Position numbers and translations under genes: made by a program. From Gemmatimonadota bacterium (GTDB lineage Bacteria > Gemmatimonadota > Gemmatimonadetes > JACCXV01 > JAHWKZ01), in contig JBHENR010000028.1 in the NCBI GenBank assembly GCA_046262555.1, positions 1 to 32,298 on the forward strand: 32,298 bases of DNA. The letters are read 5' to 3'. The notes under the pieces are model-generated. The model was not told the origin of the DNA. It ran no database searches and saw only the letters and a list, made by a program, of their open reading frames with translations. This document shows, piece after piece, positions 13,399-30,134 of this stretch (its first letter is position 1; every line of letters starts with the position of its first letter).

Positions 13399-15339
13399 TC
13401 AGCGGCCCGGAGGCGCTCCACACACCCACTCATAAGGCACCGGCCGCGCGGAAGGCACCAACCCACCCCGGTAGGTGTTTGAGCTGTCCGTGTCGGGGCT
13501 TTGATTCCCCGGCGACCGGCTGTACAAAATCCCCCCCGCATCCTCGTCGAAGCTGGTCAGCGCCATCGCCGAGATCGAAGGGGTCATCAAGCTCGGCGTC
13601 CGGCCGTCCATGTGGCCGAGCCCGAGCGCATGCCCCAGTTCGTGGCCAAGGACCGCGCCGCGGGAGGTCGCTGAGGTGCGGACCAGGCTGAAGCGGAGCC
13701 AGATGATACCGCTGGAGATGATCCGCGAGCCGTCCCAGAACGTGCGCGCCAGCCCCACGGTCCGGGGGCCGCTGTAGCGGCTGGCATTCTCATCGAAATG
13801 GATGACGATCGTTCCGGGTGTGCCGTCCGGCGGCGGCGCCGACCCGGCCGTCACCGAGGCGGCGTGGATCGCTCCGTTCGACCACCCCGCGATGTACCCC
13901 GCGACCGCGCCCTGGACCTGCGTGATCCAGGACGTGAGCTCGGCGCCGGCCGCGATGCCGGAGCCGCGGGTGTCGATGTAGACGGTGGGGTGAGCCATCC
14001 AGCGAATCGTGCGCGGCTCGTACTCCCGCGCGATGTCATTGAAGGCGGCCATGTCGAACGCGTCGGGAATCGCCGGCCAGCGCGAGTCGCTCGAGCGCGC
14101 GAAGGTCGTGCGGCGGTGCACGCCGGGGCCGCTGATCACGAGCGCGCGCAATGACCCGGAGGCGGTCCCGGGAACGGTGAACTGGCCGTTGGCGTCGGTC
14201 GTCGCGGTCGCGTCGGCGTAGGAAACCGAGACACCGGCCACGCCCGTGCCGGAGAACTGATCCACTACGCGCCCGGCCAGCGCGACCGTGCCCGTGGGCG
14301 GCGGGGGCGTCGGGGGTGGAGCGGTGGCGGTCACCGTCGCCGTCACGGGCACGGTCACCGCGCCGCCGTTGGATGTCAGCCGCACGATCGCGGAATGGGT
14401 GCCGGCGGCGAGGGTGCCGCGCGTCGCGGTGACGGTGAGCTCCTGCGTGGCGTGGGGCGCGATCGTGCCGGAATCCGGCGACCGGGTCAGCCAGGCCGCG
14501 CTGGCGGTGGCCAGCCAGTTCAACGGGCGGCCGCCTTCATTGACGAGCGTGACGATGCGGGTGGTTTCGGTGGCGCCGAAATCGAGCGGAACGGGCAGCG
14601 CGTGGAGCCGCGCGGGGGCGGCGACTTCGACCCGCAGGGCGACGGTGCCGGCCCCGCCATTGGAGGTCAGGGTGAGGGGGGCCTCATGCAGGCCGTCCGG
14701 CAGAGCGCCCCGCTGGGGGGTCACCGCGATCTGCGCCGTGGCGCCACCGGCGACGGTGCCGGCCGCGGGGCTGAGCGCGACCCAGGACGGACCGCTGAGC
14801 GTCCACGTGAGCGGCGCGGCGCCCGGATTCGACAGGAGCACCGTGGCGGTCGCGTCGTCGGGCGTGAGCGTCAGCACGCTGGGATCGAGGACGGCGAGCG
14901 GCGTGGCCGCGACGTCGGCTTCGACGGCGACGTCGAACGACCGGGCACCGAGCACGAAGCGCGCGCCTCCGCGATGGGTGCCGGCGGCGAGCCCCAGCCG
15001 GGTCACGCGCAGCCGGACGTCGGATTCTCCCGCGCTCAACGTTCCGCTGGTCGGCGTCGCGGTGAGCCAGGGAACGGAGAGCTCGAGCTGCCACGCCACC
15101 GGGGAGACGCCATGATTGGCGAGCCGCACGATCTGCTCATCGTCGGCCGGCTCGAACCGGATCGAGGTAGCCGAGACACCGACCCCGTCGGGGGTCCCGG
15201 GCGGATCAGACGGATCGTCGGGTCCCGCGGGCGTGTCTGGCTTGTCGCACGCGCTGAGGAAAAGCCCCAGCGCGACGGCGAGCGTCGGCAGCGAGCGCAG
15301 GGCCAGACAGAACCATAGGTAGGGTGAGCGCATCAGCAT
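13399..15339 (-). CDS. Secreted or lipoprotein metzincin metalloprotease with N-terminal Ig/BACON-like repeats
   Basis: 646 aa. Signal/lipobox: LAVALGLFLSAC. About four repeats of the type PLTWTLSGPSWVALSPAAGTV..GATAQIAVT. A CarboxypepD_reg-like segment follows (LAGRVVDQFSGTGVAGVSVSY..TDANGQFTV). The C-terminal zinc site is HELGHALGLGH (HExxHxxGxxH), with a Met-turn candidate SLMTP. Confidence 0.8.
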   Translation of the reverse strand: MLMRSPYLWFCLALRSLPTLAVALGLFLSACDKPDTPAGPDDPSDPPGTPDGVGVSATSIRFEPADDEQIVRLANHGVSPVAWQLELSVPWLTATPTSGTLSAGESDVRLRVTRLGLAAGTHRGGARFVLGARSFDVAVEADVAATPLAVLDPSVLTLTPDDATATVLLSNPGAAPLTWTLSGPSWVALSPAAGTVAGGATAQIAVTPQRGALPDGLHEAPLTLTSNGGAGTVALRVEVAAPARLHALPVPLDFGATETTRIVTLVNEGGRPLNWLATASAAWLTRSPDSGTIAPHATQELTVTATRGTLAAGTHSAIVRLTSNGGAVTVPVTATVTATAPPPTPPPPTGTVALAGRVVDQFSGTGVAGVSVSYADATATTDANGQFTVPGTASGSLRALVISGPGVHRRTTFARSSDSRWPAIPDAFDMAAFNDIAREYEPRTIRWMAHPTVYIDTRGSGIAAGAELTSWITQVQGAVAGYIAGWSNGAIHAASVTAGSAPPPDGTPGTIVIHFDENASRYSGPRTVGLARTFWDGSRIISSGIIWLRFSLVRTSATSRGAVLGHELGHALGLGHMDGRTPSLMTPSISAMALTSFDEDAGGILYSRSPGNQSPDTDSSNTYRGGLVPSARPVPYEWVCGAPPGR

Positions 15340-15616
15340 CCTGTCGATCGTGAAGGTAGGGAGTCGGCCCGCGGTCTGCCGGGTCTACTGCACTCCCCGT
15401 ACCACCGCGGGGGGAGCCGCCGCCCGCGAATCCCAGGAGAACAGGCCCGAAACCCCCCGCGCCCGGAAAAGTCGGGGTGGGAAGGGCTCGAGCGGTCATG
15501 GGGGCCCCCCGGACGGCTTCTCATGAACCCCGCAGGAGAAGCCGGGGTTCATTATTGTGGCCTCGCGCAGGCAAAGAAAAGCGCTTCCGGAGGGGCGGTT
15601 TCGAGGCCCCGCCGCC

Positions 15617-28982: not shown

Positions 28983-29061
28983 GGGGCGGGAAGCTACGTG
29001 AGGGGCGCGGGAAAATCATCCAGTCGGCGCAGTTGCAGTGTGGTGACCCACGACCGGATTC

Positions 29062-29091
29062 TTGCAAAAGGGGGCGATTGAATCCTATACT
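29062..29091 (+). promoter_or_regulatory. Candidate sigma70-type promoter TTGCAA-18 nt-TATACT
   Basis: TTGCAA at 29062-29067 and TATACT at 29086-29091, about 60 nt upstream of the ATG at 29152. This is a sequence match only. Confidence 0.35.
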
Positions 29092-29151
29092 GCAACCCAG
29101 CGGAGGTCCCTTGGGGGTGGCCCCGCTAAACGACGACTACAGGAGGACTCG

Positions 29152-29559
29152 ATGCGACCACACTGGGTAGCGCAATGGGCGGTGTGCCTGTTGATCGGAG
29201 GCGGGGCCTTGACCGTCACGGCAAACGTGAGTGAAGCACAAGAACCGCGGCCCGGCGCGGCGGCGGGAGTGAGATCGGCTGAGATACCGTCTTCTCCTGA
29301 TTTCCAGCAAATCGGCCGCGAGTTTCATACGCTGGCGTGGGACGTGGAGAATTTGCTCGGAAAACTCGCTGGGGATCGAGCCCTGCGCCGGAGACTCGAG
29401 GCGGCGGCAATATCAAAGGACTACCGTGCGGTGGAGGAAGTGCTTCGGGCCGCAGGCGTACCTGAGCAGAACGCAATCACGGTGCAGCCCGCCTCGCCTC
29501 CCGCAACCATCACGATAACGATCTGTTTGGGCAAAATCTGCGTGACAATCGTATTATAG
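29152..29559 (+). CDS. Secreted hypothetical protein with a Nif11-like helical domain and a Cys/Thr/Ile-rich C-terminal tail
   Basis: AGGAGG (29141-29146) lies 5 nt before the ATG. Signal-like N-terminus: MRPHWVAQWAVCLLIGGGALTVTANVSEA. The segment DVENLLGKLAGDRALRRRLEAAAISKDYRAVEEVLRAAGV fits the Nif11 N-terminal domain pattern as I remember it. The tail is ATITITICLGKICVTIVL (29503-29556). Confidence 0.6.
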   Translation: MRPHWVAQWAVCLLIGGGALTVTANVSEAQEPRPGAAAGVRSAEIPSSPDFQQIGREFHTLAWDVENLLGKLAGDRALRRRLEAAAISKDYRAVEEVLRAAGVPEQNAITVQPASPPATITITICLGKICVTIVL

Positions 29560-29654
29560 GGGGCCATCAAACTGCCCCCCCTCCCCGCAGGTGACGAGTC
29601 GCGCGCGCGCGGCTAGGGAGCCCGCGTACGCGAACCGAGGAGCTGCTCCGCCGG

Positions 29655-29882
29655 GTGGAGGGGCTTGACCCCGCCACGCTCGACGCCTGCCAGGCGGCCG
29701 GCTACGTGGTGCCCACCCGGCTGACTGGCGGTGACGATTCGCGCTGGTGGGCCGAACAGGACGTGAGCCGGCTGCGCGACATCCTGCGGTTCCGGCGGCA
29801 GGGGCTGGAGCTGGCGGCGGCCTACGAGCGGGCCCGTGAGGATCGCTTCTTCGGCCTGTGCCCGTGCGACTGGCGGAATTGA
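29655..29882 (+). CDS. Small MerR/CbpM-like HTH domain protein, start uncertain
   Basis: 75 aa from the GTG at 29655: GLDPATLDACQAAGYVVPTRLTGGDDSRWWAEQDVSRLRDILRFRRQGLELAAA. The frame is open from 29595, and the upstream in-frame residues TEELLRR look like helix 1. No ATG/GTG/TTG lies there. Confidence 0.5.
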   Translation: MEGLDPATLDACQAAGYVVPTRLTGGDDSRWWAEQDVSRLRDILRFRRQGLELAAAYERAREDRFFGLCPCDWRN

Positions 29883-29896
29883 AACGGGAGGTTCAG

Positions 29897-30118
29897 GTGC
29901 ACATCACGATCGAGTACTGCACTGTCTGAAGTTACGAGCCCAAGGCGACCAGTCTGGCCGCCCAACTGAAAAAGGCGTTGGCTGTTGTCACGGTGGAGCT
30001 GATCCCGAGCGGCGGCGGCGTGTTCGAGGTCATCGCCGACGGCAAGGTCGTGCATTCCAAGAGGAAGACGGGGGACTTTCCCGATGCGGAGGCGCTGGTG
30101 CGGAAGCTGAAGGGGTAG
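29897..30118 (+). CDS. selW: SelW-like (Rdx family) thioredoxin-fold protein with an in-frame TGA at 29927-29929, a probable selenocysteine (CxxU)
   Basis: The ORF track misses it because the TGA splits it. A GTG at 29897 is preceded by GGGAGG (29886-29891). An alternative TTG at 29879 overlaps the upstream stop as TTGA. Translation: VHITIEYCTV[TGA]SYEPKATSLAAQLKKALAVVTVELIPSGGGVFEVIADGKVVHSKRKTGDFPDAEALVRKLKG, then TAG 30116-30118. The IEYC-x-x-[C/U] motif after beta-1 and the GxFEV...SK...G-FPD signature are those of the Rdx family. Confidence 0.8.
29930..29967 (+). other. Candidate bacterial SECIS hairpin downstream of the in-frame UGA
   Basis: The upper stem pairs GGCGACC (29944-29950) with GGCCGCC (29956-29962), with one A.C mismatch. 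The loop AGUCU contains GU. The stem begins 14 nt after the UGA. A possible 4 bp lower stem pairs AGUU (29930-29933) with AACU (29964-29967). Folded by eye only. Confidence 0.4.
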
Positions 30119-30134
30119 AACCGGGCGGCAGTTC

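What the first reader, a model, noticed from the sequence alone, without database searches (positions are those of the whole stretch)
29897..30118. Hidden selenoprotein gene: SelW-like (Rdx) ORF with in-frame TGA at the CxxU position
The frame from GTG 29897 reads VHITIEYCTV, then TGA (29927-29929), then 62 more sense codons ending at TAG 30116.
- The TGA falls exactly where SelW/SelT/SelH (Rdx) thioredoxin-fold proteins carry the second redox residue of CxxC/CxxU, right after beta-strand 1.
- The downstream part carries the rest of the family signature: GVFEV, HSK, GDFPDAE.
- Neither half makes a credible gene alone, and the stop-delimited ORF track cannot show it.
- A hairpin with GU in its loop starts 14 nt after the UGA, a plausible bacterial SECIS position.
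- The gene sits in a visibly lower-GC patch and may be co-transcribed with a small MerR/CbpM-like ORF.
Basis: partly seen in the sequence, partly recalled or inferred. Interest (0 to 1): 0.75.

Follow-up and report, generated by a model that had tools for sequence, protein, structure and literature searches.

The report
SelW-like selenoprotein gene with SECIS
This is a genuine but ordinary small redox-protein gene of the well-known SelW-like family, in which an internal TGA "stop" is read as selenocysteine with the help of a conserved RNA hairpin just downstream.

Summary
GTG 29897 to TAG 30118 (+) is a 73-codon gene with one in-frame TGA (29927-29929). Read through, it matches Pfam Rdx (71.7 bits, E 5.7e-20) and NCBIfam TIGR02174 CXXU_selWTH above their cut-offs, and the match spans the TGA.

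- **Sec column:** the TGA aligns with the second Cys of CxxC in true Cys homologues and in solved Rdx structures.
- **Conservation:** all 52 related loci from other genomes, plus three syntenic relatives, carry TGA at this column and stay in frame on both sides.
- **SECIS:** a 7-bp hairpin lies 14 nt after the TGA (29944-29962, loop AGUCU). It is 90.7% paired across 53 sequences with compensatory changes, has an invariant loop G, and is degraded in five TGC/TGT homologues.
- **Genetic code:** TGA ends 15 of 20 genes on the contig, so the code is standard.
- **Limits:** the hairpin in this sequence alone is not above chance. The Sec machinery (selA/B/C/D) could not be checked, because only this one contig of a Gemmatimonadota MAG is available.
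- **Novelty:** bacterial SelW-like selenoproteins have been described since 2004-2005, and NCBI already calls an orthologue through its TGA.

The finding is correct and of low novelty. The conserved MerR-like neighbour, and an FAD oxidoreductase gene present in relatives but missing here, are minor side observations.

The parts
29897..30118 (+). SelW-like (Rdx family) selenoprotein CDS: 73 codons, GTG start, TAG stop
   Evidence: Pfam PF10262 at 71.7 bits, residues 2-71. TIGR02174 at 59.5 bits against a cut-off of 34.2. PDB Rdx proteins 2fa8 and 2npb match residues 3-71. 52 loci are homologous from residue 1.
29886..29891 (+). Shine-Dalgarno GGGAGG, 5 nt upstream of the GTG start
   Evidence: Read directly from the sequence. 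Homologues begin MHITIEYC at the aligned position.
29918..29920 (+). TGC, the Cys of the CxxU redox motif (codon 8)
   Evidence: C8 is invariant in the protein alignment and in all 53 loci.
29927..29929 (+). In-frame TGA read as selenocysteine (codon 11, the U of CxxU)
   Evidence: TGA in 53 of 53 aligned loci and in syntenic relatives. It aligns with the second Cys of CxxC in Cys homologues and in 2fa8.
29944..29962 (+). Bacterial SECIS apical hairpin: arms 29944-29950 and 29956-29962, loop 29951-29955 AGUCU with G29952 and U29953
   Evidence: The helix is 90.7% paired across 49 distinct sequences. Three pairs change on both sides. The covariation score is 0.275 against 0.126 in shuffles (0 of 500 reach it) and at most 0.122 when slid. 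The loop G is invariant while its codon is Gly, Ser or Arg. The hairpin is degraded in five Cys homologues. The loop resembles the E. coli fdhF GGUC loop, one codon further from the UGA.
29655..29882 (+). Upstream small conserved ORF with weak MerR-type HTH similarity, probably co-transcribed. Homology to relatives begins at 29628.
   Evidence: It belongs to a family of about 83 aa at 64-76% identity. It lies directly upstream of the SelW-like gene in L061, L063 and L064. MerR_1 scores only 15.7 bits, below the 21.6 cut-off. GenBank lists it as a hypothetical protein, MFN2382865.1.
29528..29557 (+). Sigma-70-like promoter match upstream of the MerR-like ORF (consensus match only)
   Evidence: TGGGCA-18-TATTAT, 9 of 12 positions. 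Function not shown.

Best explanation
Positions 29897-30118 encode a 73-residue SelW-like (Rdx family) thioredoxin-fold protein. Its active site is Cys8-Thr-Val-Sec11.

**Shown**
- The frame, family membership, and the position of the TGA on the second redox residue.
- Conservation of TGA and of the reading frame on both sides across at least 56 genomes.
- A conserved, covarying hairpin 14 nt downstream that Cys-coding homologues do not keep.

**Inferred from the established bacterial Sec pathway**
- When the ribosome reaches UGA 29927-29929, SelB-GTP carrying Sec-tRNA(Sec) is tethered by the hairpin's apical loop (G29952, U29953).
- It then delivers selenocysteine in place of termination, and translation continues to TAG 30116.
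- The product acts as a small thiol/selenol oxidoreductase that cycles through a Cys8-Sec11 selenenylsulfide. Its substrate is unknown, as for all bacterial SelW-like proteins.

**Likely**
- The gene is co-transcribed with the small MerR-like ORF that ends 14 nt upstream.
For: **Family.** Pfam Rdx gives E 5.7e-20 over residues 2-71. TIGR02174 scores 59.5 bits against a cut-off of 34.2. Solved Rdx structures, Atu0228 (2fa8) at E 1.9e-9 and mouse SelW (2npb), align YCTQC with the window's YCTV-TGA.

**Sec/Cys pair.** Eight true CxxC homologues align C with the TGA column, and their DNA reads TGC or TGT. Database 'CxxW' and 'CxxG' forms are TGA read under other genetic codes (L060).

**Conservation.** 53 of 53 loci carry TGA, with MHITIEYC upstream and conserved sequence in frame downstream. 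So do three syntenic relatives.

**SECIS.**
- The upper helix is 90.7% paired, with 41 cells changed on both sides, and exceeds all 500 shuffles and all slid registers.
- The paired codons swap amino acids together: Thr/Val, Ser/Glu, Ser/Gly and Ala/Ala.
- The loop G is invariant across Gly, Ser and Arg codons.
- Cys homologues keep only 3-5 of 7 pairs, at -3.0 to -6.7 kcal/mol against a median of -11.4 for TGA forms.
- The loop sequence GGUCU/AGUCU at +25 to +29 compares with fdhF GGUC at +22 to +25.

**Standard code.** TGA ends 15 of 20 genes on the contig.

**Start.** A GGGAGG Shine-Dalgarno lies 5 nt upstream.

**Literature.** SelW-like CXXU proteins are an established bacterial selenoprotein family with in-ORF SECIS elements (PMC1088965, PMC1794560).
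Against: - No selA, selB, selD or tRNA-Sec lies in the 32-kb contig. The rest of the MAG could not be searched, so Sec decoding in this organism is inferred and not shown.
- The window's own hairpin has an A.C mismatch, giving 6 of 7 pairs at -8.1 kcal/mol against a family median of -11.4. Alone it is not better than chance.
- The lower helix seen in some relatives is absent here.
- No Rfam family matches.
- There are no expression or selenium-labelling data.
Confidence: 0.9

Rival explanations
1. The gene is a pseudogene. A CxxC Rdx gene suffered a TGC-to-TGA nonsense mutation and is no longer expressed as a full-length protein.
For: A single base separates TGC from TGA. Sec machinery was not found on the contig. 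The hairpin in this sequence carries a mismatch.
Against: The same TGA occurs in 53 of 53 loci from several phyla and in three syntenic relatives. Both flanks stay in frame and conserved, and GC3 is 0.85. A covarying hairpin is maintained only in the TGA forms.
Confidence: 0.03
2. UGA is decoded as a standard amino acid (Trp, Gly or Cys), either by a reassigned genetic code or by near-cognate suppression, and not as selenocysteine.
For: Many database entries for homologues show W or G at this column. Sec machinery is unverified for this MAG.
Against: TGA terminates 15 of 20 genes on this contig, so there is no reassignment. The W and G entries trace back to a plain TGA in DNA and are gene-caller artefacts. 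The column is Cys in non-TGA homologues, as expected for a Sec/Cys pair. A SECIS-type hairpin has no role in simple suppression.
Confidence: 0.03
3. Only the downstream part is a gene, for example TTG 29978 to TAG 30118 (46 aa), and the upstream ten codons are untranslated leader.
For: Automated callers often report such fragments for homologues.
Against: The fragment lacks beta-strand 1 and the redox motif that define the family. The N-terminal MHITIEYC is the most conserved part in all loci. The Shine-Dalgarno precedes GTG 29897, not 29978. The 46-aa product is not on record for this contig.
Confidence: 0.02

Closest known systems
Bacterial SelW-like selenoproteins (Rdx family: Pfam PF10262, NCBIfam TIGR02174 CXXU_selWTH), described in prokaryotic selenoproteome surveys (PMC1088965, PMC1794560)
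   Same: Same family by HMM above the curated cut-offs. Same roughly 70-80 aa single-domain size. Same CxxU motif directly after beta-strand 1. Same Sec/Cys alternation among homologues. Same in-ORF SECIS with a G in a small apical loop.
   Different: Nothing substantive. The host is an uncultured Gemmatimonadota MAG, a phylum for which I found no literature on Sec use. The score falls just short of the narrower equivalog NF041051 (84 bits against 88).
E. coli fdhF SECIS, the reference bacterial SECIS bound by SelB
   Same: A hairpin inside the coding sequence just 3' of the UGA. The apical loop carries a G-U, in GGUC(U). The distance from the UGA is similar.
   Different: The G-U sits at +26/+27 here against +23/+24 in fdhF, one codon further. 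There is no bulged U. The window lacks a continuous lower stem reaching back to the UGA. SelB binding was not tested.
Solved Cys-type Rdx proteins: Atu0228 (2FA8), P. fluorescens SelT/W/H domain (2OBK), mouse SelW (2NPB), human MIEN1 (2LJK)
   Same: Sequence homology over residues 3-71, with the redox motif aligned. These proteins have a thioredoxin-like fold with CxxC/CxxU (PMC3527542).
   Different: The bacterial structures are CxxC proteins of about 105 aa. The window protein is shorter (73 aa) and uses Sec.

Membership tests
Rdx / SelW-like (PF10262, TIGR02174) | Profile HMM score above the curated cut-off over the whole domain | tested here: met
   PF10262 scores 71.7 bits against 22.6, over residues 2-71 of 73. 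TIGR02174 scores 59.5 bits against 34.2.
Rdx / SelW-like (PF10262, TIGR02174) | CxxC/CxxU redox motif directly after beta-strand 1, with the TGA on the second redox residue | tested here: met
   YCTV-TGA aligns with YCTQC of 2fa8 and 2oka, and with CxxC of eight Cys homologues.
Rdx / SelW-like (PF10262, TIGR02174) | Sec/Cys pair: homologues carry either TGA or a Cys codon at that column and nothing else | tested here: met
   TGA in 53 of 53 loci and in the syntenic relatives. TGC or TGT in five Cys forms.
Rdx / SelW-like (PF10262, TIGR02174) | Thioredoxin-like fold | not tested
   No structure was predicted, because the tool does not accept the read-through sequence. The fold is inferred only from sequence homology to solved Rdx structures at E 1.9e-9.
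NF041051 SelTWH_Campy (NCBIfam equivalog) | Score at or above the equivalog cut-off of 88 bits | tested here: not met
   84 bits. The gene is therefore filed under the broader TIGR02174 subfamily only.
Bacterial SECIS element | Stem-loop within the ORF immediately 3' of the UGA | tested here: met
   A 7-bp helix at +18 to +36 from the U of UGA (29944-29962), present in register in 52 of 53 sequences with at least 5 of 7 pairs.
Bacterial SECIS element | Small apical loop with a conserved G (G-U) at fdhF-like distance from the UGA | tested here: met
   G at +26 is invariant, and U at +27 occurs in 43 of 53 sequences. The loops are GGUCU, AGUUU, AGUCU, AGGUU and AGGCU. In fdhF the G and U are at +23 and +24.
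Bacterial SECIS element | Structure maintained by selection: covariation, and loss in Cys forms | tested here: met
   90.7% paired, three pairs with compensatory changes, and 0 of 500 shuffles reach the observed score. Cys forms keep 3-5 of 7 pairs (n=5).
Bacterial SECIS element | Binding by SelB and SECIS-dependent Sec insertion | not testable with these tools
   This needs biochemistry or a reporter assay.
Sec-decoding trait | selA, selB, selC (tRNA-Sec) and selD in the same genome | tested here: inconclusive
   None lies in the 32-kb contig or in the syntenic loci. selD lies 4-5 kb from the SelW-like gene in five Chloroflexi loci.
Sec-decoding trait | UGA remains a normal stop elsewhere (local recoding, not reassignment) | tested here: met
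   15 of 20 annotated genes on the contig end in TGA.
MerR family (upstream ORF 29655-29882) | MerR HTH profile above the gathering score | tested here: not met
   MerR_1 scores 15.7 bits against 21.6. HspR scores 23.5 against 105. The 83-aa relatives have no Pfam hit. This is a resemblance only.

The most novel reading that the evidence does not exclude
In the window's Gemmatimonadota lineage the SelW-like selenoprotein is part of a conserved small operon: MerR-like regulator, then SelW-like, then an FAD/NAD(P)H pyridine-nucleotide-disulfide oxidoreductase. The oxidoreductase would be the dedicated reductase that recycles the Cys-Sec selenenylsulfide, giving bacterial SelW-like proteins a long-missing physiological partner. 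The window's genome would have lost that reductase and rely on another electron donor.
Probability: 0.12. Interest if true: 0.45.

Novelty: already known. Interest (0 to 1): 0.13.

Why it matters
**Practical value.** Stop-delimited ORF tracks and many metagenome gene callers break or mistranslate this gene. They produce 42-60 aa fragments, or W/G at the Sec position. Selenoprotein content in Gemmatimonadota and other soil phyla is therefore under-counted in protein databases.

**Sec use in the phylum.** All 28 Gemmatimonadota loci recovered carry the TGA form. This suggests Sec decoding is common in a phylum for which I found no literature on Sec use.

**RNA constraint on protein.** The data also give a clean example of an in-ORF RNA structure dictating coupled amino-acid changes in the protein.

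None of this changes current understanding. The family, the motif and the recoding mechanism are textbook.

Tried and rejected
- **Single-sequence folding of 29927-29990 and 29880-30020.** The MFE was not better than shuffles, and the MFE structure did not even choose the conserved hairpin. Rejected as evidence either way.
- **Rfam.** Nothing relevant at gathering or permissive thresholds.
- **ARAGORN on the window and 59 loci.** No tRNA-Sec.
- **tblastn with E. coli SelA, SelB and SelD against the window and all loci.** Only selD was found, in Chloroflexi loci.
- **Exact-protein look-ups to trace the contig.** Several failed. The contig was finally identified through DnaE as an NCBI Gemmatimonadota MAG.
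- **Resolving what GenBank protein MFN2382866 is.** Truncated, antisense, and X/C/W-substituted variants are not on record. A U-containing sequence is not accepted by the tool. Left unresolved.
- **Generic scan for other in-frame TGAs with coding-like flanks.** It gave mostly off-frame artefacts and missed SelW itself, so it is uninformative.
- **Synteny of the window's flanks with the 52 genome loci.** None. Synteny was found only through the MerR-like ORF.
- **Proposed lower SECIS helix (columns 9-13 with 39-43).** Only 51% paired and absent in the window, so it is not claimed.
- **Foreign origin of the low-GC patch.** Rejected because GC3 is host-like.

Full report
**1. The observation.** The sequence is exactly as described.
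- GTG at 29897 opens a frame that reads VHITIEYCTV.
- TGA follows at 29927-29929, then 62 sense codons, then TAG at 30116-30118.
- A GGGAGG Shine-Dalgarno lies at 29886-29891, 5 nt before the GTG.
- The stop-delimited ORF list shows only a 46-aa TTG-started fragment for this frame.

**2. Family.** I replaced the TGA by Cys for searching.
- The 73-residue product matches Pfam Rdx (PF10262) at 71.7 bits, E 5.7e-20, over residues 2-71 and across the TGA.
- It matches NCBIfam TIGR02174 'CXXU_selWTH' at 59.5 bits against a cut-off of 34.2.
- It falls just short of the narrower equivalog NF041051, at 84 bits against 88.
- Against solved structures it matches bacterial Rdx proteins (2fa8 at E 1.9e-9; also 2oka, 2obk, 2ojl, 2p0g, 3dex), mouse SelW (2npb) and human MIEN1 (2ljk) over residues 3-71. 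Their YCTQC lies on the window's YCTV-TGA.
- These structures are described as thioredoxin-like folds with a CxxC/CxxU motif (PMC3527542).

**3. The Sec/Cys column.** Protein databases mostly hold C-terminal fragments of homologues that begin after the TGA. This is the expected signature of miscalled selenoprotein genes.
- An exhaustive search with the post-TGA segment found 155 relatives.
- Among the full-length ones, eight carry a true CxxC.
- Many others show CxxW or CxxG.
- DNA for one CxxW entry reads TGA (L060), so those are TGAs translated under other genetic codes.
- DNA for five CxxC entries reads TGC or TGT.
- A formal alignment puts the window's column 11 on C, or on misread TGA, in every sequence. 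C8 is invariant.

**4. Conservation of the TGA.** A scan of one genome per species found 52 loci. Of these, 28 are Gemmatimonadota, and the rest are Planctomycetota, Chloroflexi, Acidobacteriota and others. All match from residue 1.
- All 52 plus the window carry TGA at the same column.
- MHITIEYC is conserved upstream, and conserved sequence continues in frame downstream.
- The search patterns did not include the U column, so Cys forms were not excluded by design.

This rules out a private nonsense mutation.

**5. The SECIS.**
- *Alone, the hairpin is not significant.* The MFE z-scores are 0.34 and 1.73. A comparable hairpin follows 24% of random TGA triplets in this contig.
- *Comparison with relatives is decisive.* In the 53-sequence alignment A1, the helix at columns 18-24 with 30-36 (window 29944-29950 with 29956-29962) is 90.7% paired. 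Three pairs change on both sides, in 41 cells. The covariation score is 0.275 against 0.126 ± 0.013 in shuffles (0 of 500 reach it) and at most 0.122 for slid registers.
- *The paired codons change amino acid together.* Examples are ACC/GUA (Thr/Val), UCC/GAG (Ser/Glu), UCC/GGC (Ser/Gly) and GCC/GCG (Ala/Ala).
- *The loop G is under RNA-level selection.* The G at column 26 (window 29952) is invariant although its codon is GGU (Gly), AGU (Ser) or AGG (Arg).
- *Cys forms lose the hairpin.* The five TGC/TGT homologues keep only 3-5 of 7 pairs, at -3.0 to -6.7 kcal/mol against a median of -11.4 for TGA forms. One of them (L058) retains a GGUCU 'fossil'.
- *Comparison with fdhF.* The loop GGUCU/AGUCU at +25 to +29 resembles the E. 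coli fdhF loop GGUC at +22 to +25, one codon further from the UGA.
- *The window's own hairpin.* It has one A.C mismatch, giving 6 of 7 pairs at -8.1 kcal/mol. Nine sequences share this mismatch.
- *The closest relatives.* They show G-C (L061) or U.C (L063, L064) at that position, so one internal mismatch is tolerated.
- *Lower helix.* A lower helix seen in some Gemmatimonadaceae is only 51% paired overall and is absent here.
- *Rfam.* No matching family.

**6. Genetic code and source.**
- TGA ends 15 of 20 annotated genes on the contig, so the internal TGA is a local recoding site.
- The window is a complete 32,298-bp contig of an NCBI Gemmatimonadota MAG. Its DnaE is MFN2382842.1, 100% identical, on a contig of the same length.
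- The contig is ordinary chromosome: dnaE, a shikimate-pathway operon, CNNM/CorC, a YggX-like Fe(2+)-trafficking protein, GreA and Dus.

**7. Sec machinery.**
- No tRNA-Sec, selA, selB or selD lies on the contig or in the syntenic loci.
- selD lies 4-5 kb from the SelW-like gene in five Chloroflexi loci.
- The maintained TGA and covarying SECIS across 28 Gemmatimonadota genomes are indirect evidence that the phylum decodes Sec.
- I found no literature on Sec use in this phylum.

**8. Context.**
- The upstream ORF (29655-29882) ends 14 nt before the SelW start. It belongs to a conserved family of about 83 aa.
- Its MerR resemblance is below threshold.
- Three syntenic relatives were found through this ORF: L061, L063 and L064.
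- Their gene order is CNNM(-), MerR-like, SelW-like, a Pyr_redox_2 oxidoreductase, YggX(-), GreA(-), Dus, and a DsbA-like gene.
- TGA and the hairpin are retained in all three.
- The window lacks the oxidoreductase. Only 16 nt separate the SelW-like stop from the YggX stop.
- These neighbours do not accompany SelW-like genes in the other 52 loci.
- Co-transcription with the MerR-like ORF is therefore plausible within this lineage, but it is not a family-wide association.

**9. Is it 'hidden'?**
- In JGI, ENA and Logan calls it is hidden or mistranslated.
- In GenBank probably not. NCBI calls the L061 orthologue as 74 aa through the TGA.
- In the window's record, accession slot MFN2382866 lies between the MerR-like ORF (…865) and YggX (…867).
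- I could not retrieve what it encodes.

**10. Comparison with what is known, and verdict.**
- SelW-like CXXU proteins are among the most abundant bacterial selenoprotein families. They were the largest family in the Sargasso Sea selenoproteome.
- They have in-ORF SECIS elements with a small apical loop that contains a G (PMC1088965, PMC1794560).
- This gene meets every family criterion I could test.
- It is a correct call of a known kind of gene that works by a known mechanism, so interest is low.
- The conserved MerR-like / SelW-like / oxidoreductase cluster in one Gemmatimonadota lineage is a modest lead to a possible redox partner.

Noticed in passing
L061:10502-11719; L063:10504-11682; L064:3729-4907; window 30119-30134: In the three syntenic relatives, a Pyr_redox_2 FAD/NAD(P)H oxidoreductase follows the SelW-like gene by about 17-20 nt. 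It is ferredoxin-reductase-like and below all equivalog cut-offs. The window lacks it entirely: only 16 nt separate the SelW-like stop from the convergent YggX stop. It could be a reductase partner that this genome has lost.
   Followed up: partly
window 29628-29657: Homology of the MerR-like ORF to its 83-aa relatives extends 9 codons upstream of the annotated GTG 29655. Where L061 has its GTG start, the window has ACG (29628). Either the start is non-canonical or the protein is N-terminally shortened here.
   Followed up: partly
L058:3001-3234: This Cys-form homologue (TGT at the U column) still carries GGUCGGUCUGGCC with a GGUCU loop, 5 of 7 pairs in register. It looks like a fossil SECIS left by a Sec-to-Cys conversion.
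   Followed up: no
P0004 and similar proteins; L060:216-437: Many 'full-length' database homologues show W or G at the Sec position. The one checked is a plain TGA in DNA with a perfect 7 of 7 SECIS hairpin. These are selenoproteins mistranslated by gene callers using genetic codes 4 or 25.
   Followed up: yes
L034:7272-8300; L037, L038, L041 and L049 at about 14150-15480: selD (selenophosphate synthetase) lies 4-5 kb downstream of the SelW-like gene in five Chloroflexi/Anaerolineae loci.
   Followed up: no
L061:15270-15995 (also L063:13670-14455): The DsbA-like gene after Dus in the syntenic relatives hits NCBIfam NF041057, 'Rcas_1661 family thioredoxin-like (seleno)lipoprotein', at 100 bits (cut-off 190). 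The window ends about 200 nt after Dus, so its counterpart cannot be seen.
   Followed up: no
L007:6276-6373: ARAGORN calls a 98-nt 'tRNA-Gly(GCC)' 3.7 kb from the SelW-like gene. No Rfam tRNA family matches it, so it is probably a false positive.
   Followed up: yes
window 28983-29654: This lower-GC stretch (0.60-0.63) between CNNM and the MerR-like ORF holds a 165-aa ORF (29062-29559) with no family match in Pfam and a hydrophobic N-terminal stretch. Syntenic relatives have no gene there or a different one (DUF1697 in L061).
   Followed up: partly
L064:8074-13480: Phage- or integrative-element-like genes (AlpA/HTH_17, DUF3987, capsid) sit next to the tRNA-Phe/tRNA-Thr pair downstream of the syntenic block in one JGI relative.
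   Followed up: no
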